Source: Nemertoderma westbladi
Lineage: Eukaryota; Animalia; Xenacoelomorpha
Direction of reading: 5' to 3'
Length of the DNA: 64,000 nt
Assembly (NCBI GenBank): GCA_032718475.1
Contig: JAUCBJ010002461.1
Span: 1 to 64,000 of the forward strand
In this document: piece by piece, positions 32,551 to 62,245 of the stretch
Layout of the letters: each line of letters opens with the position of its first letter
How positions within the stretch are numbered: position 1 is the first letter of the stretch
The notes under the pieces: model-generated
Told to the model about the DNA's origin: nothing
What the model saw: only the letters and a program-made list of their open reading frames with translations
Databases searched by the model: none
Made by a program: the position numbers and the translations under genes

Positions 32551-33044
32551 GCTTTAGTAACTAAAGCTCTTTTGTTGAATCAGTTTCAATATTCTTATTG
32601 GGATTTTAGAGTGTCCGCATGGTTTGTTTTCATTCAAATTTTGAATAATTTTGTTTAGATCAAGAATATCTAGAGAAGACAAACAAAAACGTTGTTGTTT
32701 GGAATAGTTTGAATTTGGTTTTGAATTGGCATATTGTAATATTAAGATCTGATAATTTACCAATATTGATATATATTTCATTTCAAATGTTCGATATTTC
32801 TTTTTTTTCAAATATGCTTTTACCACAATACCTTACTGCCATCCTAAGGCAAACCCATGTAACTCGAATTTTGACGAAAATGAGATATTGGTATCATTTT
32901 AAAGCATACGGCGAGCTCTACCTGGTGGTAGAATTTAATAGAGTTCATATAAACCCTAAAGGGGTTAAAAAGGGGGTAGAATGTAACTGCATTATATGAA
33001 TTTGTTAAGGCATGCCAAGGCAGAAGCTAACACTGGATATATTA

Positions 33045-33574
33045 GGCCGAGGGCCGTTGAAAATGACAGGGTTAAATTGTCAGTATTAATAATCACAGTA
33101 ATTGATAATAGCACAGTCTGAATATAATAATATGCAATACAACAGTCAGTAATGACGACGACGGTCAAAACTATTCCGGTCTCACAACTGTAAGGAAATC
33201 AACTAAACTAATAATCAGTAATCACAACGGTTATATCATTGACACATATTACATTAGCCCTACACTACAGGCTGGCCTTAATATCCAATAGATGCGCTCT
33301 TGTCCTCCCCAATGTGCTTTCCCGCCCACTATTGGCTTAACCTGATTAATTCTCACCTCGCCACTCCCTGTTGGCATTGTCCCTTGGTGCTAGCTTGTTT
33401 GTCCCTCTGAGGTGGTTTTGACCTCTCACCTCTCTCTGTGGCTTACGGCGTGCATCGCCCCAGTTTGGTTATGAGGTGAGATTATTATTGGAAATCTCAC
33501 ATCGCCAACTATATTGGTAAAATGCCACTAATCCCATTTTCGGTGGGTAGTGCACGGAATTGAATCCGCTGACA
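33045..33574 (-). mobile_element. Partial solo LTR related to the LTR at 47333-48101
   Basis: Shares GGTTATGAGG.GAGATTATTATTGG...ATCGCCAACTATATTGGTAAAATGCCACT...GGAATTGAATCCGCT; homology stops exactly at the terminal ...ACA. Confidence 0.8.
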
Positions 33575-40729: not shown

Positions 40730-43700
40730 CTAACACAATCCTTCCGCTATTAATTTCTTAGCTCTCTCCGCAGCTTTTCTTTTAGGTCGTTGACATTCAC
40801 GGTCATTAATGGTATGTTTTGAAATACGGGAATCAGAAGAGTTAGTATTCTTATTCATCACAGAGTTTGGTTCAATACATCTCTCGTTTAATTCCAATGG
40901 AAACAACATGTTAATTGGTCGAGTTACTCGACTTACTTTTACCTTCCTTTTATTCTCGATAACAAATCTCACAACAGCACTTCTAACTTCTTCATCATTA
41001 CTGGTGTTCAAAGAATCAATAACTGCCAGTTTCCAACGTCCTCGTGGCCCATCATCCTTTATCAAAACAATATCTCCAATTTGTGGTTTATCTACCAACT
41101 GTCCCTTTCTACCCTTATGGTCAGTTTGTGTTCGCTCTTGGAGACTATGTAAATATTCGTCATAGAAAGCTTTCCAGACAGAATCAATATGTTCCTTTCC
41201 ATGAGTCCATGCACTAATCAAACTTTCCTTAAGTGTCGGAATGGCTGGTTGATAATTTGAATCTCTTAATACATCTTCATAGGATCCACATTCTAAAAAT
41301 GCACCTAAGAAATCATTTGGACATAAAGTATACCCTGAGTCTATATCATTTCCTACATATAGCAGAGGTCGACTATTTATTATAGGTTCAATTTCTAATA
41401 ACAGGCATTCAAGTTGCCTTATAGTCAAGCACGTCTTTCGTAGTAATTTCTTTAAGATCTTTTTTATCAAGCCAATAAGCCTTTCATAAAAGCCACCCAT
41501 CCAAGGGGACATTTCAGGGATAAATCGCCACTTTATGCCGTCACTTAACACAGCTTCCAATACAGATCGTGCCAGTTTAAATTGAGAAGCATTATCAGAT
41601 ATGAACATTGATATCTTCCCTGATCTCGCTTTAAATCGCCTAAAACAAAATAAAAACTCTTCAGTTCCTTGGTCTCGAACTAATTCCAATCTAACACCTC
41701 GAGTAGCCATGCATGTAAACAGACAAATCCAAATCTTTTGGACTTCGTTTGCATCGTTTCTTCCGAATAGTGGTCCCATATAATCCAATCCAGAATATTC
41801 AAAGGGAAGTGATCTCATAATACGCTCCTTTGGCAATGGAGCTATCGGAGGAAGTTTATATGATTGCCCATCTACCTTTTTACACATTATACATTTCAAT
41901 AATATTGATCGAACAACAGATCTTCCATGTATTATCCAAAAATGTCTTCTAACTAAAGCCAAAGTATGTGATACACCAACATGGAAGTTTAATTTATGTA
42001 CTCTTTCTACCAATAATTTTGTAAACCATGATCTTTTCGGGAGTAATATCGGGAAACCATTTAATGGTTCAGCATAAGTGAATCGTCCCCTGCATCGAAT
42101 AATATCATCATTATCAATAAAACAACCTAATGCTCGCTTCAACTCGTTCGTCTCATTATGGTTAATTGCATGTATCATGTCGCCGAACAAGATCATTATT
42201 TATCTGCAAACGTTTAGATTTTGGAGTAATGAACCGTAAAATGTAAACCATTACCCGAATCGCATTTGACAGATTTGAATATTTGTTTCCAAATTCTTCT
42301 AAAAATTTCCATTCAGTGTTCTCTCTATATTCTTGTTTTTTTCTGAGGATGGGCAAGTAATGACATACTGTAAAACTCCTTTGCCGGTTTTGACGCCTCA
42401 TCACATAGTTTAATATACTCGGGTGTTATTGGAGGAAGTTTTGTTGACTCCCACTCATTCGGGTCACATGAAAGCCACTCTGGCCCCTTCCACCAAATCT
42501 TATTGTCAATCAATTCGTCAATGGAACAACCTCGACTTGCAATATCTGAAGGGTTGTCCTTTGAAATAACATATCTGAATTCGTAACCAGTATTTCGAAT
42601 ATCATGCAGTCGTCTATCTACAAATGCCCCTATTTGCTTTTTAGATTTCAGCCAATAAAGTACACATAGTGAGTCAGAAAATATAATAGTATCAACAATC
42701 TGGATATTTCGAAGTTGATTTTTGCAGAAAGTTACAGCATTTGATGTTATCCACATGCCAAGAAGTTCAAGTTTTGGAATTGATGGTTGCTGTTTTGTTG
42801 ATTGGTGTTTCTTTGGTTCTATCAGTCGACTTTTAGCAAACACCAACAGTGGTTCATAACGTAATTTGTTACATTCATTTGCATATTCTTTCACCAGAAA
42901 TACACATGTTGCATAAGCCTGGGCAGAAGCATCTCCAAATCCATATAATCGGTAGTTATTTGCAACAGCAGCATAGAAACTTCTATTTAGTTTTACCGCA
43001 TTGATATTAACTATACTATCTAGTAATTTATTCCACTCTACTGACTGTGCAATCGAAAATCGTGCGTCCCAATCAAGTTTTTCTTTCCATAACCTTTGTA
43101 GAAACAGTTTTGTTCGAAGCAATACTGGTGCAAAAAATCCAAGAGGGTCAAATACACTAGAATGTGCTTTCCAAGCCAACCTTTTCGTCCACTCATCTGG
43201 TTTCAACATTTTAAATTTTGATATTGAAAATGTATCATCATTGACATTCCAACATAGGCCTAACACTTTGATAATTTCAGCCATCGATCGATCTTCTGGA
43301 TTCACAATGTCTCTTAATTCTTTGCTATTGGATTGCCAACTTCGTAAATTCATAGATGCTTCTTTAAATATATTCTTTGCTTCAGAATAAAACTCCTTCG
43401 CTTCCTTAACACTATCTACCCCAGTAGCAATGTTATCTGCATATAAGTTATCTTTAATTTGCAGTGCAACTTTAGTTCCCAATGTATTCAGGTGGAATAT
43501 TATTACAGCCAATAATAGACACAAGCTTGTAACAACTCCAAATGGAACTCTCGTAAATCGTAAGACCATTATATTATCTGAAGTACATGTTCTATTTGAG
43601 TCTTTCAACCATATAAATCTCGTCACATCCCTATCTGGAACTTGCAGTCCAACCTGCAAAAATGCCTTTTCTATATCTGCTAATATAGCAATTGGTTTTA

Positions 43701-44760
43701 TCCGAAATCGTAAAAGTACACCACATAAGTTTTCTAATAAAACTGGTCCTGAATAAAGGCACTCATTGAGGCTCTTATTTCCTTTTTTTGTTTTAGCACT
43801 TGCATTGTAAACAATTCGTACCTTTGTGGTTTCCTTATCTGGTTTAACCACAGCATGATGTGGGATATAATGTTTCAAATTTGTAGAATTTTCCTTTTTT
43901 ATTTCAACTTCTTCAACAATCCCTTTCGATATTTGATCTTTTATAATATTATCATAATCAGCTAATAATTTTCTATCATTCAATAGTCGTTTATGTACAG
44001 ATTTTAATTGACCTAAGCATAATTCATAGTTGTCGGGTAGATCTCTTGTAAAATCTTCTCGCCTTGGCCAAGTAACAAAATAACGTCCATTTTCAAAGAT
44101 TATAGAGTTGTTAAATTGCCTTAGTGCCTTATCATCATCATTGGCTACACATGATTCCTTTATTCCAAGGGTTTCTAGGTTCCAGAACAGTTCAATATTA
44201 GGTTTCTCTAATACCTTATCCACATATTCACATTGGTCATTTAGTATTGAGTTAAGACATAGTAATGTCATCATTGACTGGTTATCCTTCTGTAAATTAT
44301 TAACTTCCACTCGACCTGATAAGATCCAACCAAATTTAGATTCTAGAAGGCACAAACCGTCATTAACTTGAATTCGTTTTGTGTTTATAAACTCATCATA
44401 ATAATCATTTCCAATCAAAACTTCCATTTGATAATTTCTATCTCGTGAGTTATCAGCTAGGTAGTTGACCTTTTGTTTTAATTCAGCTTCTAAAACTTCA
44501 TCGATGGCGAAACGCCCAACAGTTCCTGTTATCTGTGGCACTACAGCAAATTCTATAGTTTGTGTAAGACCGAATTTTGGTACAATTCCCATTTTAATAA
44601 TTGGAAGTATTTGAGTCTTTATTCTCTCAGACCCAAATGTACACAATAAAAATGTTTCATATCGTTCAGTGTTAGTTATTTTTAGTTTTCGTCTTAAACT
44701 TTCTGATATGTAACTTCTTTTGCTTCCTGAATCCAAAAATATTCTCGATGTCTAGAAACG
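40730..44760 (-). pseudogene. BEL/Pao pol (protease-RT-RNase H-integrase), two frameshifts, gag and 5' LTR missing
   Basis: Protease DSGS; RT YIPHHAV, ADIEKAFLQ, PFG, YADN; RNase H FGDAS, PKLEL; integrase HHCC, GLDYMGP, SDNA, GGFYERLI. Confidence 0.93.
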
Positions 44761-47332
44761 TCATCTAATACTACAACAACATCAGACTGGCATCTTTCTT
44801 CCTCGGCTGTAATTTAATTTTTCTTTTCGTCTCTTCTCGTTTGCGGCGACTCTAAGCCTCTCTTGACGTTGACGCCGAAGCGGACATGTAGTCGTTGAAT
44901 GCCTCTTTGGTGGGCATTGCCCACGGTCCAGGTATCGAGCCAGGCGTTGGTTAACAACATCGATACGAAGTAGTGGAATATGTTCCATAAAACCACTCAT
45001 TGCTTCTTTGGCTGCTATTATTGGCTGAAATCCGTATCTGTGCTTGAGGCTGTGACTAAGAATACCATAGAATACAATATTATATTGAATGTGAGGTTGT
45101 CGAAGAACACACAGTATGAAAGACGGTAAAATATCTCCCCCCCCCCCCCCCCGGAGACTCCCATGCTGTAAAACATTATTACATTACCTTTTTCGGACCT
45201 CATCTGCACGTAAACACCATAGAATAATATTGATAATGATTCCCTATGTAAAACCAAGACAATAGATTAGCGGTAACGCGACAATTAGCCTGTCTGTCGC
45301 TCTATTATGTCCAATTTTATATGTTTATAACTCAGCCAAACCTCTTTGAAATCTAACCAAACTTAGTTGTTCTGGAAAAGTTTAGAAATTTTCCAGTTGA
45401 ATTTGCGTGTGGCCTTCAAGAAGATAAGATAAAAGCAGTTAATTAGTTAATTAAGATGATTACGGTAAAAACAGCATTTTATGCCCGCCCTTTAAAGGAA
45501 ATTAATTATTTCCTAGTATAAGATTTAAATAATTATACTTAAAAATTATACAGCTGTAATCCGCATACCCCATTCCATTATAGTTTTTAATTAGTTTAAG
45601 TGATTTGCTTTAAGAAATTAAAATACCCCATCACTCTATACTTCTATCTCCCTATATTCGTAGAACAATTAGCTATATAATTTCGTTGAAGTGTTGATAT
45701 GGTAAATTAATATTTCAGTATCAATACTCTCAGCCTAAGGCAAGTTTTAATATTTCTTAAAAATTGGGTCGCCTCCACACCTAAAATATAATTAATATAT
45801 TAATTATAAATGAATTGTTGTGGGGTGGGTGACGGCGAATTAAATATAACATATTATATTTAATATATTACTTTTAAAACACAAATTTTCTGTTAATACT
45901 GGACTTTCATCAATCCTCTGTGCGCCTTTGGGTTGGGGTGGTGCAGATCAAGAGGGGGGTTGAAGTGGAGGATCTTTCCCCTCATCTTTGATTTATTGGT
46001 GGTGTGGTTAAATTTCTTTAAAATACCGATTTTGTGATACCATAGAAATGCTCAATTTTAATTTGTATTTCATAACTGAGCCTCGTGTTTCACGAAGGCC
46101 CCACGAACGTGTATAGCTTAGTTTGCAATAGAGTTGGATCATCCTAAGTCCTGTTTAAATTACTTAATAATTTATATTGTATGTTACTTTATTTCTATTG
46201 GCTAAAACCTATGTCCTCTCTGTGGCATCATTGCTCCTTTCCTGTTATTGGCCAGGTGATGAAAGTTCTTGAATGTTATCTTGCTAATTTAAATAGTCGA
46301 AGAATGCACTAATACCTTAGAGTGTCAAGAGATTTTTTGAATTTCCTCTGAGTTTAACATTGCTATATTTCACCTGTAATATGCTGTATTACCTGTAACA
46401 TAACCTGGCTATTAGCAATTTCTATCAAAGTTATCCTCAAAATCACATCGTGGAAAAAATAATTTATATCTCTGTGGTGTTCTTGCATATACTATTAATC
46501 ATAATAATTTTTCCCCATACAACATTTACTAAAACGTTGCTTACACATGTTAAATACTCTGAAAATGGAGCTGATCTTAAAATTGGTGAGTAAAACACAA
46601 TCCCACAGAAAATAATATTTAGAAATTTTGTAGGATGGAGTTAAAAGCTACAGTTTATGAAATTTTTAAAAATTTACCATGAATTTACCAAGCCATGACA
46701 ATTGACAAGCACATACTTAACTATATTATTAAACTGGATTATAAAGCCTCTAACAGTACCTACCTTCACATAAGAACCAGTAAAATGTTGTCGAACCTCA
46801 TGTTATTAAAATATCTGGAAGTCTCAGGCTTAAATGTTCTTAAATTGCCTGTTACAAGTAGCCGGTATCGATAATGTGTACTGTATGTACAGTAGGCATA
46901 CTTCTCGTCTCTCACTAATGCAGATACTTCAATGCTCTCTATTAAAATTAAATTTTCATTAATTTCTTAAATCAATAGGACTATGAACAAGTTGGATTAT
47001 GAACGAATTATCAATTCAATTTTCATAGTTTGTGGTTTGCATTACCAATTTTAGCTTTAGTATCTAATATATTGATCATCTGATATTGTTCTTCTTCTAA
47101 AATACTAAATTACTTAATCCTAATACCTAACTTATCCTAAAATACATGTTCTTGCCCTGCTTTAGTGTGCTAATAATACTAATAATATATTGTTGTTGTT
47201 CTGGATCAATACCTACCTGGGTGTTCCTAACTTAACTAAAATAAGAAACAAATTTCATCTGAGATATTTATTAAATGAACAAATATTTACCAAACATAAA
47301 GATTACATAAACATTTATTCATGTGATCTAAT

Positions 47333-48101
47333 TGTACGAGACATTGGGTCCCATGATTGTACCACCGTCTCGGTTCAATAAGCTCCCTGCAGGCGGATGA
47401 ATTGGGGATTTACATGGCTGATCGCGAACTGTGGATGTGATGGGATCGTAGATCCCGACCGGGTAAGGTTTAGTACGCATCACCGTTCTTCTGGGCTGCC
47501 GAGCTAGTGTCCTTTTGGCCGAAGGCCGTTGGGGAAAAATAACAGAGTGATAGAGAAATGTACTGTAAATAACAGAGTATGATAATAGCACAGAATTAGT
47601 ATTTGATTGTTATCGCAATACAGAACAACAGCAGATAGAATAATATGTGATAACGTGGTGACGGTCAAAAACTATAACCGGTCTGCATCTCTGTGATTAA
47701 TGAACTGACCGGTAAATCAGAAATACAGAATAACTATATGATTGATACACACAGATATTGGTTTCACCTCTTACACTACTTGGCCTTCTGTACCCAATGG
47801 ATGCTTTCCTGCCTCTGTTCACATGCTCCCCTGCCTGCTATTGGCTTATATACTAATTGTCACGTTGGCACTCCCTATGAGTGTTTCCCCCCGCCTCTAG
47901 CCTTTACTAGCTGTGTTCTCCCTCCGAGGTGGTTTGACCTCTCACCTCTCTCTGTGGCTTTGGGGCTTGTGTCGCCCCCCCCCCCGAAGTTGGTTATGAG
48001 GCGAGATTATTATTGGTAATCTCGTATCGCCAACTATATTGGTAAAATGCCACTGGTCCCCTTTTCGGGTGGATAATGCAAGGGAATTGAATCCGCTTAC
48101 A
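47333..48101 (-). repeat. 3' LTR (~770 bp)
   Basis: Minus strand GGGGGGGAG|TGTAAGCGG; this boundary is confirmed by the homolog ending at 33574. The other end (47333 or 47358) is uncertain. Confidence 0.75.
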
Positions 48102-48110
48102 CTCCCCCCC
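48102..48110 (-). other. Polypurine tract
   Basis: GGGGGGGAG immediately before the LTR TG. Confidence 0.75.
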
Positions 48111-48773
48111 ATGCTATCTTCCCGGTGAGAAGATAGCATCAACCTTAAGTGCGCTTCAATTCCGCTGGAACCCAACCTAATATTAGGTGTGGGGTGGAGT
48201 TCTTTTCTCGGGGTCGGCTTTCCTGACCGCCCTCCCTGGGTGTGTTATTACTACCCCTCCTTGGTGCAATCACGAGCTATGTTGCACTAAGCTATCTGGG
48301 TATTTGAGAGAATTGTGCTCTCTCTTCATACAATTTTCTTTAACTCTACTCAAAACTCTCTCACGGACCTTGTTGTCCCATACTCTCACTTCGGTCCCTT
48401 GGGACTCTTCCCCTCTCACTGCTCACTCCCCACGTTTGAATTGCACTTCTTTCACTTCCTCACGCGCCAATACCTCCTCACCATACCTCCCCACTACCAC
48501 TCTCCTCTCTCTCATCGGGTCTCATGCATGTGTACATCATGTCAGTGAGATCCGTCTAAAGTCTCATCCTATTATCGTAGTCAAGTGGTCCCCAATCCCA
48601 GTAGCTAATTGGAAAAGGTTATATATGACTATAGTACTTACATTGGTTATATATTCATATTGATTATCTACATACATACATACTAATTGCACTTAATTAT
48701 TTGCACTTAGGAGTTCGTATTTTATCCCACATATGGTGCCTTCCAGGCATGTCCACATCTCCGTCCCTGAGTT

Positions 48774-51290
48774 CTAGTTCGCTCCTCCCTTCTTCAGGAA
48801 CCATCTTAGTTCTTTGCCCCTGTCATCGTCTTGTCTGGGCTGCTTCCTTCCCTCTAGTTTGTCCTCCCTGAGACTTCTCATTCTTGCCGTTACTGTCTTG
48901 CTAAGCCCCGTCGTTGGTTCTTTGGGCGCTGGTGTTATCAACTCCCGGTAACGCTTTGCAGGTGGCCCTTCCGAGTGTCCCTCCTGCTTCCCCCTGGTAG
49001 CGTCCCACAGGATCATTTTCATTGCCCATGGCACGTGTTCCGCCAGAAAGTCCCTGAACTCGCTCCTGTTCTCTGGCGACCATCTATCCAAGTATCTCTG
49101 TGTGTTGATGACTCCTTCATACGATGCCGCGGTCGCTACCTCCTGGTATGTGAATGGCCGTCTCCTCTTGATAATCTCCTGGTGGGCTCCCGGATTGATG
49201 TTGAAGAAGCCCCACCGGAACTCCTGGGCCTTCATCCTCTGCCGTGTCATAACACCGACGTCGGCCCACTCTTCGAAGATCTTAAAATTCTCAGCCAGTC
49301 GCACTGGCGCCCATAGTGCCCTGGAAAGTTGCACTTTGAGCAGCGGTTGTGCAGCCTCGGACACGCACCCATCCTATGGGTCGACTCGCAGCAGTAGAGA
49401 CAGCTTGTCCCCTTCTGAAATCGATACAAACAGCTCTTTTCTTGGTGAGTCAGTCTCCCGCAGTAGTCACAGACGTGTATCAACGCGTCCCGCCCCAAGG
49501 CGTCCTTTGCCCCGAGCGGTCTCCTAGGTCTGTGGAGCCGTTGATAGGCAAACATCTGGACACTGTGATCCCTACCCATATCAACGTCTTCCTCCACCCT
49601 CGGCATCGTCTCCCCAAACACTACCCATGGTGCCATTCCTGGTTGCTCGCCCAACCTGATTGTGCTTCCCGCGAAATCCATTGCCGGCTCCTCGTGCACC
49701 CAGGCACGCTTGCCGGGTTTATCCCAGAAGGCTCTCACCCCGCTGGCCGTCACCACTCTCCCGCCCACCCAGTCCATATCTGAGTGGCCGATCCTCTCAA
49801 TGGGCGGCATCTCTCCGAACTCGTCGTCATCTTCCTCCCTCGGTGGAAGTGGATCTGGACCCGGTAGATCCACTATGTCCCTTTCCGCCTCGGTTTCCAC
49901 CCGTAACTTTCCACCCTTCCTGCTCCCTCGGTCTCTTCCTTGCAAAATCGCCCTCAGTGCCCCCTGGTATGGGCATCACTTGCAATCCCGATTTCGACTG
50001 TTTCGGTGATCCCTCCGTCCATCCCAGTTCATCTTCCAGAAACTCGCCTGAGGTCTCCGATCCCCTCCTCAGCTCGTCCAAATTCTGGGCTTCGAACTCA
50101 TACTCCTCTCCCCTTATATCCGCTTCTCTCCTGTCTGCCTCCCTCCTTTCTCGCCTGGCAATCTCCTCCAGCCTCTTCTCCTCGATTCTATCCGCTTCCA
50201 GCTTCTCCCACCTGTTGTAGGGTGTATCCACCTCTCTATCAACTACGTGTCGGCTATCGTAGTCCACCGACTCGCCCTTTAGCCCCGGGTGGTCTACCAG
50301 ACCTTCGAAGGCCACCTTAAGGCTCTCCTATAGTTTAGAGGTGCTCCTGATAGCAGAAACACCGTTGGCTCTCTTCCGATAACCATGGCCATGAATAGGT
50401 TTAATAAACCTATCATTACCCAATCTTCCTGTAAGATATATCTCTTCTGATATATTTTTATCGCCCCCCTTCGGAACTGATACACCTCCTGTTTTCCTGG
50501 CCTCGCTCCCCATTTCAGCGAGTTCGCCAGTTCCACTCCGTACTCCTCCCGGAACTTTCCCCAGTCCATCGGCTTGTGGCAGACGAGCCCCATGAGTTGA
50601 CCCATCGCCACTGCTCCACAATGTCCTGTGTTCTCTACCAATCCCAATACCTCTGGCCCTGTCATAGCCATATAGACCGCTTGCATGTCGAGGAGGTTGG
50701 GGGTCTCCGGTCCGACGATCCTCTCCGCGTGTTCATGGATCGCTGATCCCACCTTCACCGTAGTCTTCTCCCTCACTAGGTCCTGCACCTCCCTCGGCAA
50801 CTGGTTCAACTTCGGCCCGCTCTTCTTCCCGTAGGTCCCCAGATCGAATAGAAAGATATCTCCGTTTTGCGCAGCAAAATGCAGTAGTATGGTTCTAGCC
50901 GATCCCGCCGACCCTCTTCTCGAGCCCTCGTCGTCCTCCACAGTCCCTTCGTCATCTAGGACCATGTATCCGCCCCTACTCACAGACTCTACAAACCTCC
51001 TCCATTCCTTCCTCGGTGGTTCCCTCGGATACTTCGGTATCCCGAACTTCGCCTTGTCTCCCTTTACTACGTAGTGAAAATGCTCGAGGATTGCGTTGTC
51101 CAACGACAGTGTCCCGTAGGTCCCGACCAGTCGTCTCTCGTGCATCTCCCTAAAGTGGTCCTGCAGTGCTCGCGCTTTGTACCCTTCGGTAGCGGTTTGT
51201 AGTATCCCCTCGTCTACTCTTCCGGAAGTCCACTAGTAGCTCCTTTCCAGTCCTCTCCGTCTTTCTCTTCTTCACTAGCCTCTCTGCCAT
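48774..51290 (-). pseudogene. Accessory gene: DEDDy 3'-5' exonuclease-like domain + charged linker + three CCHC zinc knuckles (~840 codons, ~4 frameshifts)
   Basis: Overlapping ORFs 50294-51145, 49827-50315, 49247-49945 and 48774-49364 plus an ATG at 51290. Exonuclease-like motifs VLDDEG, LLHFA..DIFLFDL, LP.EV.DL....VKVG, LLDMQ, WGARP, QKRYILQED. Knuckles CDYCGRLTHQEKSC, CLYCCESTHRMGAC, CSKCNFPGHYGRQC. Confidence 0.7.
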
Positions 51291-51789
51291 TACGAACTTT
51301 CCCGCACACTCACCGTATTGGTGGTGCCTTACAAATGCTCAATTAAATGAGTGCCGTTTAACAAGATGGTCTGTGTTCCATTCAGTAATGCTCTACCTGC
51401 TAAATCCTAATTTTTGTCGTATATTTCTAAATATACGCCCCCCAAAGTGCCAATTTTCCCTAATTTACAAATTTTGTCCGTTACTTTAATTATGATTCTA
51501 GAACTCCCTGCCTACAGTTGCTATAATTTATTAAATTTTACCCCTAATATTATTTATCCTTTCTCACTATGCTATTATCAATTGTCGGCGGGTTATTTTA
51601 CTTAGATAACCCCTCTAGTTTGTATACAGGGAAGACTAGCTACATTTTACTATGCTAGCTACATACCAGGCAACTTTCTGGCCCTGTAACAAACTTCCTA
51701 AGCGTACACTACGGGCTGTGCAGTACAGTAGTCTGTCTCGTGCGGCCTACATGGTCTATCCTGCTGTACCCACGTGCCCCCCTCTCCCT

Positions 51790-52347
51790 TTCGTGGCGCT
51801 CTCAATGCCCACAGCCTCTATGGTACTACGTACCCTACTACAAAGAGTATGTGTACATACCCTTTACTCTCTTACTACGTGGCACCCTCAGTGCCCACAA
51901 CTTCTAACTCTTATGGTACTATGTACCCTACTACTACTTCCATGGTAAGCCTATATACCATACTCTCTACTCTCTTACTATGTGGCGCTCTCGGTGCCCA
52001 CAACTTCTAATTTTTACGGTACTATGTACCCTACTACTACTTCCATGGTATGCCTATATACCATACTCCCTACTCTCTTACTACGTGGCGCCCTCGGTGC
52101 CCACAATTTCTAACTCTTACGGTACTATGTACCCTACTACTACTTCCATGGTATGCCTATATACCATACTCTCTACTCTCTTACTACGTGGCGCCCTCGG
52201 TGCCCACAACTTCTAACTCTTACGGTACTATGTACCCTACTACTACTTCCATGGTATGCTTATATACCATACTCTCTACTCTCTTACTACGTGGCGCCCT
52301 CGGTGCCCACAACTTCTAACTCTCATGGTACTATGTACCCTACTACT
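51790..52347. repeat. 103-bp tandem array (~5.5 units) between pol and the accessory gene
   Basis: cta(c/t)gtggc at 51875, 51978, 52081, 52184 and 52287. Confidence 0.92.
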
Positions 52348-52504
52348 TAGTACTACGTACTGTCTACTACTATTACTTTCTACAATCTTACTACTTATTT
52401 ATTATTTGCTTGTTATTTATTTTTATATTTTTATATTTTTATGTGGGAAGGGCGTCTCGCCCTCATTCCCACCCCCTCAGTCCAACATATTGGACGACTA
52501 AACA

Positions 52505-55500
52505 CTAAGGCGACCCTTCCAATAGGCAACACTTTCCTACAGCCCTCCTGTAGGTCTTCCTATCTTTGGCCCCTATCTTCCCTCCTATCCTGACTTCCAC
52601 CGACCTAACTCTTCCGTCCTCATTGGGGTAAGTATCCACCACTCTCGCTAGTCTCCATTGGTTATTGATAATTGTGTCATCTGTGATGATTACCAAGTCA
52701 CCCTTCTTTAACTCTCTACTGGTATTCCTCCACTTACTCCTCCTATGCAGTGTCGGAAGATACTCTTCTATCCATCTCCTCCAATACTCCGCACTTATTG
52801 CCTTGGCGACTTTCCAGCTTTGATGTGAATGTATGTCATCTGGATCTACACCCCGCATGGCGATTGTGGCCAGCCTCTCCATTAGTAAATGCCCTGATTT
52901 TAGGACGTCCAGTGATTCCGGGTCGTCATTCTCGGGGTATAGCGGTCTGCTATTAATGATTCCCTCGCACTTGGCCAACACCTTTCTTAATACGTCTTCG
53001 GTGACCATATGGTTGTTCATCAGTTTGGTCATCAGACGTTTGGAGCTTCCGACAAGCCTCTCCACACACCCTAATGTATGTGGCGTGTACAGCTTTCTCA
53101 TTTCCCACTTTATGAGACGTCTTCTCATAGCCGCCCTGACATCGTCTCCCTCTAGGATGTCGAAGGCCTCGGCCAACTGGTTCTCTGCTCCCATGAAGTT
53201 GGTCCCGTTATCCAAATATAACAACTCTAGCGTCCCCCCTCTGCGGGCTACAAACCTCTCCAAGGCATTAATAAATGCCGACGCCATAGCGTCCTGCGCA
53301 AGTTCTATTCCCACTGCTCTTGTGTTGTTGCAGACAAAGATAATGCCGTAGCGTTTCTCTGTGTGCCGCATCACCTTAATCTTAATCAGCCCGAACATAT
53401 CCATGCCGCAGTGTGTAAATGGCGGGTCGTGATGCCTCACTCTGTTGTCTGGTAATGGCGCCATCTCCTGTACGGCCCTCTCCTTTCTTGTCCATCGGCA
53501 GGTCTGGCACTGCCCCACCACCGCCTTCACCATCTTCCTAATGGGTAATCCAGAACGTCCTTCGTATCTCCGTGAGGGTCTGATTCGTGCCTCCGTGTAG
53601 TATCGATTTATAGGAGTCCCATATGATCTGGTGGACTATTGGTGATTTATTGGGGATTAATATGGGTTTCGGTGGAATAACTGGGCTGTTGTTGTTTACC
53701 ACTCTGGAATTCATCACCAGGATCCCGTCGTCGTTTAACAACGGACAGCGGACAGCGGAGACAGCGGGTTGAGCTCGCTGCCTCGACGAAGGTGCTGTTG
53801 TTTGCTGACTCTGTCCACTTCGTCGGCGTACCCCTTTCTTTGCTCGTATCGTATTATGGCTTTAGCCGCTCCTTCCAGATCGATGGTAATGCCCATTGAT
53901 AACAGATCTGCTGGATTGTCATCGGTAGGGCAGTACCTTATCTCGTCTATCCTGTTCGCAACGAATATAGGGTATCTTGTCTTCTCGTTATGTAGCCACC
54001 CTAACACTACCACAGAGTCCATCCAGTAGTATGTCTCCACTATGTTGGGTGTAGTGTCCATCAAATAAGCGGTGGCCCTTACTCCTAACCTCGCAGCTGT
54101 CAGCTCGAGTTTCGGCACTTATGCTGAATCTGGTGGCGTCGACTTCGCTTTACTAAATGCAAGTCTGGGCTTATGAGCCCCCTTTCGCTGTACCAAATAA
54201 AGTGCCGCTCCATATGCTTCCAAGGATGCATCGGAAAACATGTATAGATCCAGATCCGTCATGTTTCCGTCCGGGAAGTACACGTGTGGTATGCTGTACG
54301 TCCCCATCTCTTCTAGACTCCCGGTCCACTTACTCCACTGTCTACTTATTTCTTCCGGGACCTCCGTATCCCACTCATCCTTTAACTTATATACTTTCTT
54401 TAGTATTTGCTTCCCCGTGACTAACAATGGGGATGCTAGGCCTAGGGGATCGTATATCCTCGCTATGTATGATACATAGCCTCGCTTAGTATGGATCTCT
54501 GCGCCCTCTTGGCTTAGTTGATACTCCAACTCGTCTGTCTCCTGATTCCACACGATCCCTAGCGCCTTTTGCTGAGACTCCACTCTCTTGTCTGTCATAA
54601 CCTGTCCCTTTACCTTTGTGGGGTTGTCCATGGTCGACTCTGGTCGTTTGTCTTCTATGGCCTTCATAAATTCCTCGGAGCTGGACTGGAACTTAGTAAG
54701 GTTGAATCCGGATCCTTTTAGGATGTCGTGAACTTCATGCCCTATCTCCAGTATTTCTGCTGCCGTGTTTCCAGATCCCATCCCATCATCTACATAGAAA
54801 CCGCGTTGAATCATGTCGATCGCCTTTGCACTATACTCTCCTTCCTTGCCCTCTATCGTATCTCTTACAGCCGTAGTCGTTGTGAATGAGGACGACTTGG
54901 CCCCCATGTTTTGCACCACCATTTTGTACATCGGTATCTCAGATGGTTCTTCGTCGCCGTTGTACCATAGGAAGCGCTGACTGTCGCTGTCTTCTTCCAT
55001 TACACGGACTTGGTTGAACATGCCTTCAATGTCGCAGGTGAAGGCATGCCTTCCATTTCTGAATCTCAACAGGACCTCTATCCCCGAGTTGTAAATGTTG
55101 GGGCCTTCCAGCAGATAGTCATTTAGGCTCTTTCCATTCGTTTTGGCCGACGCGTCGACCACCATCCGCAGTTTACCCTTCTTCGGATCTAAAGCAACGT
55201 GCAGTGGCAAATAGTAGGTCCGTCCATGTTTGGCTCGTTGACCGGTAACTCCATGGCCCACCCCTTTTCAACGTATTTTCTAATTGTTTTATGGATGCAC
55301 TCATCCTTCTCGGGGCTCCATCTGAGCATCTGCTTCAGTTTGTGAAGCCTCGTGAGTACCATCCCTTCTTTATCCCCTCCGAATATGGTCCGTACTCTCT
55401 CGTGGGCCGTCGGACAATCCATACCGACTATGATGGATACCTTCGAGATGTCCACTTCGGGTATTGAGAAATCGATATCGTCCAGGAACTGATATTGCTC
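52505..55500 (-). pseudogene. BEL/Pao pol (RT-RNase H-integrase), frameshifted and internally deleted
   Basis: RT YYLPLH, CDIEGMFNQV, FYVDD; RNase H FSDAS, PKLEL; integrase GMDMFG, DNGTNF, ERLVG, INSRPL. Confidence 0.92.
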
Positions 55501-56967
55501 AACCTCGATTCTTGTGGGCCGCCTGGTGTTTATATTAATCGATTCTATTATTTGGATGGGGTCGATAGTTGCCCTATAATCGCATCCTGGTGCTATTGCT
55601 GATATTGTAATGGGGGAATGTCACCCTGTCCCCCCTTCCCACTGGTGTTATATTTGGTACTGGGGTTGATATTACTATGTTAGGGCCCATACATCTATCG
55701 GCAATAGCTCCCCCCTCCCCTGGGTATATATTATATCCTTGCATATTATAGTCATACTGGTGTGCAGGTACCGGTATAGGCCTATCCACTTCTTGCCTAC
55801 CTACCGGTATGTATGCCGAGACTTCCGGGTCTAATCCCGTTGTCCGCACTATCCCATCGCCTACACTATCTCTTCCAGCATGGCCTATAGTATGTGCAGT
55901 AAGGCCTACAGTATGTCCTGCAGTCTGCCTATGTCCTTGCGGATCGAAGTTTAATCTTCTCAAATATTCCAAGAAGTCCTCCCCGCGACTACCGTACTCT
56001 CGATCGGCAGCTATGTCCCGTCGGGAAGTTTCTCTTTGATCCCCTCTCCTTTCCTCATCCTCGCACCGCTACATCCTTAACCCTTCTCCCGGTGTGTGGT
56101 ATATCTCACCAGGTTGCGTCTCTCCGGGGCGACGGCAATCTCCCGGAGTTCGACCCCACCGACTCTCTAACTCCATCTCGACTACCGACAGTTCACTGTC
56201 CGTCCTTCCTCTCCAGTTGCTCGTAGCAACGCTCCTTCTATTCTCTCGACTTCGTCTCACTTCAGTGTATTGATCCTCCTCGTGAGATCTCGCTTCGACC
56301 TCCTGGATAAACTCCACTGTTCTTCTTCCGTCTTCTGACTGGCCTCAACGTCATCTCGCTCGCCCGCTCACGGCGCCAACGTCTCTCTCTCTGTCCGGTT
56401 GGACGGTCCTGGGGATACTCGCAATCCCCCTACTATTCTCTGTCGTTGGGTGCCGCGGTTCACCTAACTCGCCCCGCGCACCTCCCGCCGACACTTGTGG
56501 ACATTCTCTGCCCCCCTTCTCGCCACTAATCTCTCGTGGTGGGGTGCTCGTAGCCCCCCCCCCCATCCATAACCTCCCGCTTCGCTTCTTCGCCCCTCTC
56601 TAGTCGACGCACTATCTCTACCCTCGCTGGGTCTATTCACCCCCGCCTCTCCCTGTGCAACTGCGTGGCCTTGCAGGCTCCTGTTGGCCGGACCACCTGT
56701 CCCCCCTACGTTCGTATTAATTGCACCGTAATTAATAATATTATTCTTATTAATTTCCTTGGGGTTGTTTAACGTATTATCGTTACCTAAATTAGTATTT
56801 AAATTAATTAAATTATTTTGTTCAGGATTAGGATTGTTATTTGGATTATTTTGCACATTTAAATTACAATTATTATTTGGATTATTTTGCACATTTAAAT
56901 TATAATTATTATTTGGATTATTTTGCACATTTAAATTAGAATTATTATTTGGATTATTTTGCACATT

Positions 56968-59577
56968 AAAAATATATAATTTTATTTATAATAATTAATT
57001 TATATATTATTTTATTATACAATCAAAATATAATTGAATTATATTATTGAGAATATACCATATACATTTACCGTTTAATATTTTAATAATATACTGTATT
57101 AATAGTTGTATTGAGTTATATTAGTTATATTAGTTATCTTAGTTGTATTGATCCAGTAACTCCCGTAGCGATGCGCATTGCGTTCTGTCGGTTTTGGAGT
57201 CTCCAATTATTATTCCATGTTTTTCAACGCAGTAACAGCTAACTAACGATGTTGGTCTGGGTGCTCAAAGAGGCCGCCTGGAGAAGGTCCCGCCGTCGCT
57301 AGGATGGAAGCGGCATTACCCACGAGAATGGCTATACCAATTCGCTGTAGAAGGAACCGGTGAGAGCGGGGTTCGTGGGTAACTATCTGCAGACGGGAAC
57401 CAATCTCATGGAGGAAGTTGGAGGTCTCCGGGCCGGGGCGACCCAAGGTTTCAAAGGCCACGGGATGGAAGATGTGGCCTCGCTCCATCACCTCGTTGTA
57501 GGTGGCATTTTTGCCACGTTCTGCTCCCTCCACGGTGCGCCCTCCGGCAATTAGCGTCTGGTGCACATGGCTTGGTGCCAGCGGATCGACCACTGTGGCA
57601 TCCCAGGTGAGGGTTCGGCCCTGGGACCATGGAACCAGGGTGACTCCATCTACCCTCTTCCCATCATTCCTGCAGAGGCCTGGGGGCTCCAGGATGGAAG
57701 GGACCCCACAGCTGACCAGCGCCCGCCTCACAATGTCATTCAACATCGCATGGCGGGCATGACGGCCAGCGCTCCTCCGACAGGAAAGGCCGTGGAGGCC
57801 ATTCGCAGCCACTGGAGTTCCACATCGATCGCATGTGTGGGGTTCCACTACTTTACATCCAAGGCGAGTGGCAATGGCGATTCGAAACTGCGAATTCGAA
57901 AGCTTCAGTCCTAATGAGGCGCTAGGAAGTGCATCGATCCAGCAGCCCGCAGTAGGGTCAGCGAGGGAGTTCAAACGGGCGAGATCAAGGGGTGTAGCCA
58001 CGAGGCGTAGGGTGGCGAGATTCTCCTCGTGAACTGGGAGCATCCAGGCTCTCTGACTCGATACAGCGGGAGGTGGTGCTGAATCTCGCGGTAGGGATGC
58101 ACTTCGGGTAGCATGGGCCGACTCCATGTATGGTCCAGGAGACCCATCGGACTGGTGTAGACGGTTGGAGAGCTCGGTACAGGCAGCCGCTGAAGCCAAA
58201 AAGGCAGAGGGTGCGAGCTGCACCGCCGAGCTCAATCCTAGTCCACCCAATCGTGCTGGGAGGCAGGCCTGGGCCCAGGCTTGATCGCCAATGTCGGTAT
58301 TGGCGACCTCTTGGAGGGCACTTCGGAGGATTCGGTCGTAGTCCCTGAGAAGTGCTGGGAACTGGAAGCAGGGAGCCGTCCTGAGGAAGTACGTAAGCCG
58401 TGGCATGGCGAACGAGTTCCTCAGGAGGAAGAAACCGTGGTGGGCCTCCAGCAGTGGAAGACGGCTGACAAGCGTGGAGAGGTCCCCCACCTTTCTCGTC
58501 AGACAGGAGGTGATGGCAGTTTCACCAATCGGAGACCCCAGCATTGTTAACTGGTCCAGTGGAGGGTACTGGATACCCGGGCAAATGGCATCAAATGCTG
58601 ATCGTATTTGGGCCTGGGACTCCTCTGACTCAGTACCCAGGAAGAACACCTCGCTCTTCTTTGGGTTGATAGATAGCCCATATCCCTTCCCTTCGTTAAT
58701 AACCTTCTCCAGGTCCTGTAGGACAGTGCGATAGTCATCAGCAATGTTCCCATCATCCAGGTACCAGACATTGAAGCGAGATTCCAGCCCCTGGATGATT
58801 GGATTCGCAGTATCCCCGAAGAGGCGAGGTCCATCAGTATCCCCCTGTTGTATTCCCTCGTCGGAGAGGATGGTGTCATTACCATGGAGAAGGAAGGTTG
58901 CCGCTCCATACGCCGCGAGGGTGTAGTTATAGATGGAGGGATACTGGGAATGTATGCTCTCCAGCATGGTGTCTCGTCTAATGGAATTAAACGCGTTGCT
59001 GAAATCAACTTTAAGTAACACCGTCCCCGGATGGTTCTCACCACACACAAGTGCCCTTGTAGCATGGACTGCCGCCTCAGCGCCAAGCTTGCAACCAATT
59101 CCTAGCTGCACTGCCCCATATGACTGGGTCCGTAGGTCCGCCACTATGTAACCGACGAACTTTCCACATAGCCGTCGTAAGGTGACCCCAACAGCAATAG
59201 GGCGGATTCCACCACCTCTCTTTGTGAAGGCAAAAAGATTAGCCCCAAAGAAAAGTGGGCGGACAGGAACTGGTATCTCGCCTGCAACAGTGCTGTCAAC
59301 AAAACATGCAAGGGATGCGAGTAGGCGCTCACCTGCTTCACCATTGGTAGGTGAAACTAAATCCTTCAGAATCTGGGGACGCAGCCCATCTGGCCCACCT
59401 GCACTTCCACTGGGGAATGAAGCGATTAACTGCCGAAGAATGGTGGGAGAGCAGGGTCGAGCGGCTTGAGTAACTGGTGGGGGTGGTTCTCTCCTATCAA
59501 GGGGTCGGGGTGGGTGTTTCTCCTGTAGACCTAAACGTGTCTCTGGTGTATCTGGGGCGATAGTATCCCTTGAGGGA
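56968..59577 (-). mobile_element. 5'-truncated CRE-clade non-LTR retrotransposon
   Basis: 9-bp TSD TTGCACATT at 56959-56967 and 59578-59586; AT-rich 3' UTR at 56968-57240. Confidence 0.9.
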
Positions 59578-59585
59578 TTGCACAT
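57243..59585 (-). CDS. CRE-type reverse transcriptase + CCHC finger + restriction-like endonuclease (780 aa, uninterrupted)
   Basis: RT motifs GPDGL, IRPIAVG, DFSNAFNS, GIQQGD, YLDDG; finger CDRCG...HGLSC; RLE motifs RHARH, KRVDG, WDATVVD, AERGK. Confidence 0.9.
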   Translation of the reverse strand: MCNPSRDTIAPDTPETRLGLQEKHPPRPLDRREPPPPVTQAARPCSPTILRQLIASFPSGSAGGPDGLRPQILKDLVSPTNGEAGERLLASLACFVDSTVAGEIPVPVRPLFFGANLFAFTKRGGGIRPIAVGVTLRRLCGKFVGYIVADLRTQSYGAVQLGIGCKLGAEAAVHATRALVCGENHPGTVLLKVDFSNAFNSIRRDTMLESIHSQYPSIYNYTLAAYGAATFLLHGNDTILSDEGIQQGDTDGPRLFGDTANPIIQGLESRFNVWYLDDGNIADDYRTVLQDLEKVINEGKGYGLSINPKKSEVFFLGTESEESQAQIRSAFDAICPGIQYPPLDQLTMLGSPIGETAITSCLTRKVGDLSTLVSRLPLLEAHHGFFLLRNSFAMPRLTYFLRTAPCFQFPALLRDYDRILRSALQEVANTDIGDQAWAQACLPARLGGLGLSSAVQLAPSAFLASAAACTELSNRLHQSDGSPGPYMESAHATRSASLPRDSAPPPAVSSQRAWMLPVHEENLATLRLVATPLDLARLNSLADPTAGCWIDALPSASLGLKLSNSQFRIAIATRLGCKVVEPHTCDRCGTPVAANGLHGLSCRRSAGRHARHAMLNDIVRRALVSCGVPSILEPPGLCRNDGKRVDGVTLVPWSQGRTLTWDATVVDPLAPSHVHQTLIAGGRTVEGAERGKNATYNEVMERGHIFHPVAFETLGRPGPETSNFLHEIGSRLQIVTHEPRSHRFLLQRIGIAILVGNAASILATAGPSPGGLFEHPDQHR

Positions 59586-59847
59586 TTAAATTAGAATTAT
59601 TATTACCGGGTAAAATATTATTTCCTGCAAGAAAGGTTTGATTAGGGTTGTCTATTACGGTACTATTAATATTAATTCCCTCTAATGTATTATTATTATT
59701 ACCCCTCTCGCCCGTACGGTTACACCAGTCAACATCACTCTCCGATAATCCCAATTGCGCCAGTTCTAGTCGGCGCTTTTGCTTCGCTTGGTATTGCATA
59801 AGCCCCCTCAACCAGGTATGCATATCATCCCGCATACGCTTTCCCGC

Positions 59848-59890
59848 TCTCTCTCTCTCTCTCTCTCTCCCTCTCTCTCTCTCCCTCTCT
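59848..59890 (+). repeat. Interrupted (CT)n tract at the junction of gag and unit copy 4
   Basis: Read directly; on the minus strand it encodes ERGRERGRERERER in frame with the gag fragment. Confidence 0.9.

Positions 59891-62206: not shown

Positions 62207-62245
<39 letters not shown>

What the first reader, a model, noticed from the sequence alone, without database searches (positions are those of the whole stretch)
48774..51290. BEL/Pao retrotransposon carrying a DEDDy exonuclease + triple zinc-knuckle accessory gene in the env position
Seen: between pol (ends 52505) and a PPT/LTR (48110-47333) lie 4.4 kb with same-strand overlapping ORFs. They join across ~4 frameshifts into ~840 codons, from MAERLVKKRK (ATG 51290) to the stop at 48774. 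The N-terminal part shows ExoI-like VLDDEG, LLHFA...IFLFDL, LP..V.DL...KVG, LLDMQ, WGARP and an ExoIII-like QKRYILQED; the expected ExoII Asp reads His. An acidic/Arg-rich linker and three exact CX2CX4HX4C knuckles follow. No signal peptide or convincing C-terminal anchor was seen, so it does not resemble env. Known: this motif order is that of WRN/EXD/mut-7/Nibbler/Egalitarian-type DEDDy domains, several of which act in small-RNA and piRNA pathways, and tandem CCHC knuckles bind RNA; standard BEL/Pao elements encode gag-pol with optional env. Inference: a captured RNA-binding nuclease or pseudo-nuclease, possibly an anti-silencing factor or an RNA/cDNA processing factor. I cannot confirm novelty without a search.
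Basis: partly seen in the sequence, partly recalled or inferred. Interest (0 to 1): 0.85.

Follow-up and report, generated by a model that had tools for sequence, protein, structure and literature searches.

The report
BEL/Pao retrotransposon with exonuclease-like cargo gene
A retrovirus-like jumping gene of the BEL/Pao group in an animal genome carries, where an envelope gene would sit, a broken copy of a multi-copy extra gene with three zinc knuckles and a domain predicted to have an RNA-trimming (DEDDy exonuclease) fold, which likely binds or trims RNA ends for the element; similar cargo is in print for rotifer elements of a different group.

Summary
A decayed BEL/Pao element (Peptidase_A17, DUF5641) has, between pol and a PPT/LTR, an 839-codon span in five overlapping frames with three exact CCHC knuckles, the only three in the window. 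Thousands of sibling contigs from the same species cover it. In the exonuclease-like part 23 of 40 listed sibling variants are synonymous and 27 of 40 are third-position, so it was a selected gene. The DEDDy call is likely but not proven: ESM features give WRN-like PF01612, a motif-chain test is setting-dependent, and HMMER, hhalign and folding gave nothing significant. The ExoII His is not private decay: no variant is listed there among close siblings. Linkage to pol and fusion of the pieces rest on this one copy. DEDDy ORF3s are published for Gypsy-type rotifer elements (PMC5408684), and this scan noted Rrp6-like exonuclease-knuckle ORF3s in Gypsy elements of other genomes. I found none in print for BEL/Pao. 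Verdict: new variant of a known kind; function untested.

The parts
48774..51290 (-). ORF3 accessory gene, broken copy: 839-codon span in five overlapping frames
   Evidence: sibling cover along its whole length
51150..51290 (-). Piece A: ATG frame, 46 codons, basic N-terminus, no signal peptide
50294..51232 (-). Piece B (312 aa) holding the predicted DEDDy (WRN/EXD-like) domain at about residues 90-280; ExoI D93/E95 (50956-50948), ExoII position His168 (50731-50729), ExoIII Y265/E269 (50440-50426)
   Evidence: ESM Atlas; block test; codon map; selection
49827..50327 (-). Piece C: acidic/Arg-rich linker
   Evidence: no credible family
49301..49471 (-). Three CX2CX4HX4C zinc knuckles (49471-49430, 49402-49361, 49342-49301) in piece D (49247-49975)
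   Evidence: zf-CCHC_4 E 6.5e-4, below its cut-off; weak matches to Lin28 and nucleocapsid knuckles, E 0.14-0.33
48774..49373 (-). Piece E: C-terminal region of no known family
48111..48773 (-). 3' untranslated region; ends in a hairpin (48139-48111) directly before the PPT
   Evidence: z -3.1 for 48100-48290; highest summed depth of the stretch at 48113-48271
48102..48110 (-). Polypurine tract
   Evidence: sequence
47333..48101 (-). 3' LTR, TG...CA
51291..52504 (-). Intergenic region with a 103-nt tandem repeat (51856-52347, 4.8 copies) and a second purine tract at 52478-52464 just after the pol stop
52505..55620 (-). BEL/Pao pol, broken: protease remnant, RT-RNase H (54119-55267), integrase (52505-53635)
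   Evidence: Peptidase_A17 E 3.1e-30, DUF5641 E 1.8e-25, weak RVT_1 and rve
55621..59856 (-). Decayed 5' part of the element, interrupted by a non-LTR retrotransposon (about 56971-59580) and cut off at 59857 by another repeat
   Evidence: identity as gag is inferred from position only (no Pfam hit)
33042..33574 (-). Truncated sibling LTR, 68% identical, starting at the same base, without a PPT before it

Best explanation
This is a decayed copy of a multi-copy, selected third gene lying in the env position of a BEL/Pao retrotransposon, whose product likely joins a predicted DEDDy 3'-5' exonuclease-fold domain to three zinc knuckles and would bind RNA 3' ends, most likely to blunt the host's small-RNA silencing of the element. 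Shown: position, knuckles, many sibling copies, excess of synonymous change. Inferred: (1) the gene is read from its own subgenomic RNA, since 1.2 kb of non-coding DNA separates it from pol; (2) the protein stays inside the cell, having no signal peptide or clear anchor; (3) the knuckles grip single-stranded RNA and present its 3' end to the exonuclease pocket, as shown for trypanosome RNase D; (4) in the subfamily closest to this copy the pocket lacks the ExoII Asp, so it would bind better than it cuts, like EXD1; (5) the target is silencing RNA or the machinery that matures it. My odds: BEL/Pao accessory gene 0.85; DEDDy fold 0.8; one fused protein 0.8; RNA 3'-end binder or trimmer 0.6; silencing RNA as the target 0.3.
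For: BEL/Pao pol directly upstream on the same strand. Sense-strand A+G is 0.59-0.64 through the 5' part, pol, intergenic region, ORF3 and 3' UTR, against 0.48-0.53 in flank, LTR and the nested insert. 5315, 7466, 5529 and 69 contigs of four DNA runs (three studies) lie on 47000-51750; summed depth in X1 is 41-49 in the flank and 2234-31524 over ORF3 (not a copy number). In 50700-50965, 23 of 40 listed variants are synonymous against 24-32% expected (p 5e-6 to 9e-4), 27 of 40 fall on third positions (p 1e-5), rough pN/pS 0.23-0.35; the two other minus frames give 7 of 40. ESM Atlas: 24 of 30 hits in the PF01612 set (score 0.94, 180 shared features, recognition 2631) unfiltered, and 30 of 30 among named clusters for residues 82-290. 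Sibling contigs show length differences or stop matching within or beside three of the four frame-change zones, as expected if the breaks are private to this copy. Precedents: PMC5408684, PMC7797062, 10.1101/2025.08.03.668247.
Against: No significant alignment to any DEDDy sequence: Pfam, NCBIfam, PHROGs and PDB sequence searches were empty for the domain; HMMER with the WRN-like profile gave 3.2 bits, E 3.8, with 2 of 1000 shuffles higher; hhalign was within shuffles (13 and 9 of 120). The block test depends on its threshold: z 4.2, 2.7 and 0.6 (1, 9 and 275 of 1000), and at the best-scoring setting the ExoI block landed 7 residues off. The Atlas's own controls say 4-10 in 100 shuffled proteins reach 0.9, and its top two unfiltered hits were unnamed fungal clusters. 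The antisense frame that shares third positions scores 26 of 40 synonymous, so the test shows codon-phase constraint, and the strand rests on the long minus-strand ORF. Selection was tested only in 266 nt of the exonuclease part. Linkage to pol and fusion of the pieces are seen in this one copy only. Nothing here bears on the RNA target; Rodriguez et al. found no clear link between DEDDy ORF3s and copy number.
Confidence: 0.5

Rival explanations
1. Same gene and fold, but the protein serves the element's own replication: it trims or protects the 3' ends of element RNA, primers or cDNA, or carries the element's RNA as a transport adaptor in the manner of Egalitarian.
For: Rodriguez et al. propose 3'-end processing of element RNAs first (PMC5408684). 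Egalitarian binds stem-loops, including that of the I factor, with a DEDDy domain whose catalytic residues are dispensable. A conserved hairpin sits right before the PPT and could be a binding site.
Against: The ORF is separate from gag-pol, so it has no evident route into particles; env-less BEL/Pao elements replicate without it (PMC8742986).
Confidence: 0.22
2. The N-terminal domain is not a DEDDy exonuclease; the motifs are a chance likeness in a fast-evolving protein of another fold.
For: not significant; block test z 0.6 at one setting; models at pLDDT 31 and 36.
Against: ESM features; ordered placement of the blocks and four catalytic-column residues.
Confidence: 0.13
3. A chimera: ORF3, the PPT and the LTR belong to another LTR element, and the BEL/Pao pol is a neighbour or nested insert that ended at the purine tract at 52478-52464.
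For: A PPT-like tract follows the pol stop by about 30 nt, where env-less BEL/Pao elements usually end (recalled). No 5' LTR is in the window, and the region is full of nested repeats.
Against: No second copy of 51300-52505 or of the LTR lies upstream; summed depth at 51293-51750 is low (377-1679 in X1) for an LTR; strand skew is continuous.
Confidence: 0.08
4. Two genes, not one: an exonuclease-like ORF and a separate knuckle ORF.
For: No contig spans the whole stretch; no intact copy was read.
Against: The pieces overlap without gaps, and siblings diverge from the window at the zones between them.
Confidence: 0.07

Closest known systems
DEDDy-exonuclease ORF3 of bdelloid rotifer LTR retrotransposons Juno and Vesta, shared with Athena/Terminon elements (Rodriguez, Kenefick, Arkhipova 2017, PMC5408684)
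   Same: Non-env third ORF downstream of pol; DEDDy-type domain; no coiled-coil/TM env features; function untested.
   Different: Those elements are not BEL/Pao (the paper names Juno, Vesta, TelKA and Mag clades; their Gypsy-type placement is recalled), keep intact DEED residues, are described as RNase D-like, are low-copy, and no triple CCHC array is described. No sequence link to them was found or tested.
Trypanosoma brucei RNase D, TbRND (PMC7797062; PDB 7C42/7C45)
   Same: 3'-5' exonuclease domain followed by tandem CCHC fingers; there the fingers supply RNA binding and boost trimming of small guide RNAs. Its fingers appeared as weak hits to these knuckles (E 2-3.4).
   Different: A host mitochondrial enzyme with four fingers 27 residues after the domain; here three knuckles lie about 300 codons away, and no homology beyond the knuckle pattern is shown.
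WRN-exo / EXD1 / EXD2 / mut-7 / Egalitarian DEDDy domains (PF01612)
   Same: Motif order and the KVG-type ExoII region fit WRN-like profiles better than RNase D or PolA at two of three settings; Atlas neighbours are WRN-like. EXD1 is inactive and Egalitarian does not need catalysis.
   Different: No alignment reaches significance; His at ExoII and Glu at ExoIII in this copy; no eukaryotic member could be aligned directly, so the donor is unknown.
Belpaoviridae (BEL/Pao) genome plan (PMC8742986)
   Same: pol order PR-RT-RH-IN, PPT, LTR of 769 nt within 0.2-1.2 kb.
   Different: The profile lists gag, pol and an optional env-like gene only.
Rrp6-like exonuclease(-HRDC)-CCHC ORF3s of Gypsy elements noted by this scan in other genomes (e1-7470661, e1-9570289, e1-7392031, e1-9586013; unchecked AI notes)
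   Same: Exonuclease plus knuckle cargo in the env position; active and dead forms are noted.
   Different: Gypsy hosts and Rrp6 origin as noted there; no sequence look-alike of this protein among the scan's windows.

Membership tests
BEL/Pao (Belpaoviridae) | BEL/Pao-type pol with RT-RNase H-integrase order | tested here: met
   Peptidase_A17 and DUF5641 above cut-off, RVT_1 and rve weak, in that order
BEL/Pao (Belpaoviridae) | PPT followed by a 3' LTR of 0.2-1.2 kb | tested here: met
BEL/Pao (Belpaoviridae) | Matching 5' LTR and primer-binding site | tested here: inconclusive
   none in the window; the 5' end is cut by another repeat at 59857
BEL/Pao (Belpaoviridae) | gag with capsid and nucleocapsid domains | tested here: inconclusive
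   decayed 5' part, no Pfam hit in two pieces, no knuckle motif there
env / env-like ORF3 | Signal peptide and transmembrane anchor | tested here: not met
   hydropathy maxima -0.99 (N-terminal piece) and 1.52 (internal), none at the C-terminus; a simple scale, not a dedicated predictor
DEDDy 3'-5' exonuclease (PF01612) | Significant profile match | tested here: inconclusive
   no HMM hit; ESM features positive; block test mixed
DEDDy 3'-5' exonuclease (PF01612) | ExoI D-x-E and ExoIII Y-xxx-acid | tested here: met
   D93, E95, Y265, E269 at the matching columns; ExoIII acid is Glu
DEDDy 3'-5' exonuclease (PF01612) | ExoII Asp | tested here: not met
   His168 in this copy; no variant of 15% or more listed at that codon among contigs covering it (depth about 450-480; 2 of 42 rows not shown). 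More diverged siblings stop aligning at this motif, so their residue is open. Glu167 lies next to it.
DEDDy 3'-5' exonuclease (PF01612) | RNase H-like fold | tested here: inconclusive
   single-sequence models pLDDT 31 and 36; best structural match Z 4.0, rmsd 3.6, 66 aligned, unrelated
DEDDy 3'-5' exonuclease (PF01612) | Exonuclease activity | not testable with these tools
   needs an assay
Rrp6/RNase D subfamily | RNase D-type motifs and HRDC domain | tested here: inconclusive
   block test against 29 bacterial RNase D domains z 2.1 and 1.2; no HRDC hit in any piece
Bdelloid DEDDy ORF3 clade | Grouping with those ORFs in a tree | not tested
   their sequences were not at hand

The most novel reading that the evidence does not exclude
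A BEL/Pao lineage captured a WRN/EXD/mut-7-type DEDDy domain independently of the rotifer and Rrp6-type captures, fused it to three zinc knuckles, and uses the protein as a suppressor of piRNA/siRNA silencing by seizing or trimming small-RNA 3' ends; repeated capture of different 3'-5' exonucleases by unrelated LTR lineages would then be a general counter-defence strategy of animal retrotransposons.
Probability: 0.2. Interest if true: 0.85.

Novelty: new variant of a known kind. Interest (0 to 1): 0.52.

Why it matters
Exonuclease cargo in the env slot was described from one rotifer group and never assigned a function. A high-copy, selected example in a second LTR superfamily, with a different DEDDy subtype and its own RNA-binding module, argues for repeated, useful capture rather than an oddity. 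It also offers a tractable test of a standing question, whether animal retrotransposons encode antagonists of small-RNA silencing, because many natural variants exist in one species and the closest subfamily has an altered catalytic site.

Tried and rejected
Homologue searches found none: 5.8-billion-protein set, three searches (exonuclease piece, longer and near lengths; knuckle piece, longer); 1.84 billion representatives, one hit, an 18-residue repeat match; metagenome and viral contigs; plasmids, one chance hit at E 9. These sets hold few animal repeats, so this is weak. Single-sequence folding failed twice and the fold search of the second model was uninformative, no Z of 5 or more. HMMER and hhalign against bacterial WRN-like domains were not significant; PolA blocks z 0.7 and 1.1. 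Rfam: no match in 47200-52600 at E 1. No RNA holder listed, which says nothing on expression. Rejected: env; assembly artefact at the LTR end (the flank-LTR junction is in contigs of two studies with no other letters, one of which may be the source); a displaced BEL/Pao gag nucleocapsid (all three knuckles are plain CCHC and no capsid region precedes them; the gag pattern is recalled); private decay as the cause of the ExoII His. Literature: ten searches showed no BEL/Pao element with an exonuclease ORF; 'exonuclease' has 0 occurrences in PMC3118150 and PMC13524379. Repbase, GyDB, most subscription journals and the papers' supplements were not seen, so prior cataloguing is not excluded.

Full report
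Observation. On the minus strand, pol ends at 52505 and a PPT (48110-48102) and LTR (48101-47333) follow 4.4 kb later. Between them an ATG at 51290 and a stop at 48774 bound 839 codons in five overlapping pieces with four changes of frame. The quoted motifs lie in order in the 312-aa piece. Three exact CX2CX4HX4C knuckles (49471, 49402, 49342) are the only ones in the window's six frames; 20 shuffled windows gave five in all, never more than one. Pfam scores them only weakly (zf-CCHC_4 E 6.5e-4, below cut-off).

The host element. pol is BEL/Pao: Peptidase_A17 E 3.1e-30 and DUF5641 E 1.8e-25, with weak RVT_1 and rve in RT-RNase H-integrase order. It is badly broken. A non-LTR element sits in the 5' part and another repeat cuts the element at 59857, so no 5' LTR can be compared. 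The LTR start is fixed independently by a sibling LTR at 33574-33042 that begins at the same base. Sense-strand purine content is 0.59-0.64 from the 5' part through pol, intergenic region, ORF3 and 3' UTR, and 0.48-0.53 in LTR, flank and insert, which fits one element. A second purine tract at 52478-52464, just after the pol stop, keeps a chimera possible; it may instead be a relic or internal priming site (inference).

A multi-copy, selected gene. Four DNA runs of one organism hold the stretch. Laid at 80% likeness, 5315, 7466, 5529 and 69 contigs cover 47000-51750; summed depth in X1 is 41-49 in the flank, 2234-31524 over ORF3 and 377-1679 in the 460 nt upstream of the ATG. The tool warns that this is no copy number; it does show many diverged siblings. 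In 50700-50965, 40 of 42 variant rows were shown: 23 synonymous, 17 not, none a stop; 27 at third positions (p 1e-5); neutral expectation 24-32% synonymous; rough pN/pS 0.23-0.35. The other two minus frames give 7 of 40; the antisense frame sharing third positions gives 26 of 40, so the strand rests on the long ORF. Among the 21 coding rows shown, 13 were synonymous; that table showed 40 of about 1000 rows. Siblings show length differences or stop matching within or beside the first three frame-change zones; for the fourth no row was among those shown. No contig spans the gene, so a single fused ORF is inferred.

Is it DEDDy? Against or null: no family, PDB or database homologue; models at pLDDT 31 and 36; fold search uninformative; HMMER and hhalign with 31 bacterial WRN-like domains not significant. 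For: the ESM Atlas placed 24 of 30 hits in the PF01612 set (score 0.94; the top two rows were unnamed fungal clusters) and, among named clusters, 30 of 30 for residues 82-290, including a 'Werner syndrome-like exonuclease' cluster (one method, with a stated chance rate of 4-10 in 100 for scores of 0.9). Other block thresholds gave z 4.2 and 0.6; RNase D gave 2.1 and 1.2, PolA 0.7 and 1.1. The ExoII and ExoIII blocks landed at the same place in all three WRN-like settings. I put the fold at about 0.8. The catalytic columns read D93, E95, His168, Y265, E269. No variant of 15% or more is listed at the His codon among contigs that cover it, so His marks the near subfamily; more distant siblings stop aligning at this motif and their residue is open.

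How it likely works. The ORF is separated from pol by 1.2 kb with a 103-nt tandem repeat, so a subgenomic RNA is likely; Rodriguez et al. state that ORF3s are typically separate, spliced units. It lacks env features. In trypanosome RNase D, CCHC fingers after the exonuclease domain supply RNA binding and raise trimming (PMC7797062, section 13). EXD1 recruits small RNAs through an inactive domain and Egalitarian binds RNA without needing its catalytic residues (10.1101/2025.08.03.668247). I infer a knuckle-assisted RNA 3'-end binder, weak or inactive as a nuclease in the near subfamily. Counter-silencing is my first choice of role (about 0.3) because host relatives act in silencing and the gene is dispensable for replication in other BEL/Pao elements; handling of the element's own RNA is a close second. 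None of this is tested.

What is known. Rodriguez et al. 2017 (PMC5408684; main text read, parts 1-3 of 5) describe DEDDy ORF3s in Juno and Vesta and in Terminons, with intact DEED residues and unknown role; two reviews repeat this (PMC6431247, PMC5718144; passages) and PMC6338049 lists a DnaQ-like domain among LTR accessory domains (part 1 of 4). The ICTV profile of Belpaoviridae (whole text) lists gag, pol and env only. Term searches inside PMC3118150 and PMC13524379 found no 'exonuclease'. PMC7797062 was seen as abstract, passages and one section, the Egalitarian preprint as passages. Ten library searches gave no BEL/Pao case; Repbase, GyDB and supplements were not seen. This scan's notes record Rrp6-like exonuclease-knuckle ORF3s in Gypsy elements of other genomes (unchecked), none holding all of BEL, Pao and exonuclease, no look-alike sequence and no exonuclease note in this genome.

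Verdict. Real feature; new variant of a known kind: BEL/Pao host, WRN/EXD-type rather than Rrp6-type domain, triple knuckle, altered ExoII, many selected copies. Interest 0.52, held down by the published precedent, the unproven fold, single-copy evidence for linkage and fusion, and no functional data.

Noticed in passing
window 48111-48271 (-): The stretch just before the PPT has the highest summed depth of the element in all four runs, above the LTR, and ends in a perfect 11-bp hairpin abutting the PPT (z -3.1, no Rfam match); it may be a cis element shared by subfamilies with different LTRs.
   Followed up: partly
window 52464-52478 (-): A second purine tract about 30 nt after the pol stop; relic 3' PPT or internal plus-strand primer.
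   Followed up: partly
window 51856-52347: 103-nt tandem repeat, 4.8 copies, 94% matches, in the pol-ORF3 gap; a candidate enhancer or promoter array for a subgenomic RNA.
   Followed up: no
window 56971-59585 (-): A non-LTR retrotransposon with an unbroken 780-aa RT ORF nested in the element's 5' part, with a short AT-rich duplication at its ends; CRE/NeSL-like by recalled motifs.
   Followed up: partly
window 40730-45300 (-): A second, unrelated BEL/Pao family (27% protein identity to the first), flanked by a 158-nt inverted repeat pair at 39743-39900 and 45137-45290.
   Followed up: partly
window 1500-25000 and 59857-64000: Three tandem copies and one inverted copy of a 7-9 kb composite repeat with internal 31-nt, 68-nt and 10-nt arrays, 92-99% alike; not identified.
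   Followed up: no
window 35331-37673 (-): LINE with RT (RVT_1 E 5e-28, DUF6451) and an upstream endonuclease-like piece split by one stop.
   Followed up: partly
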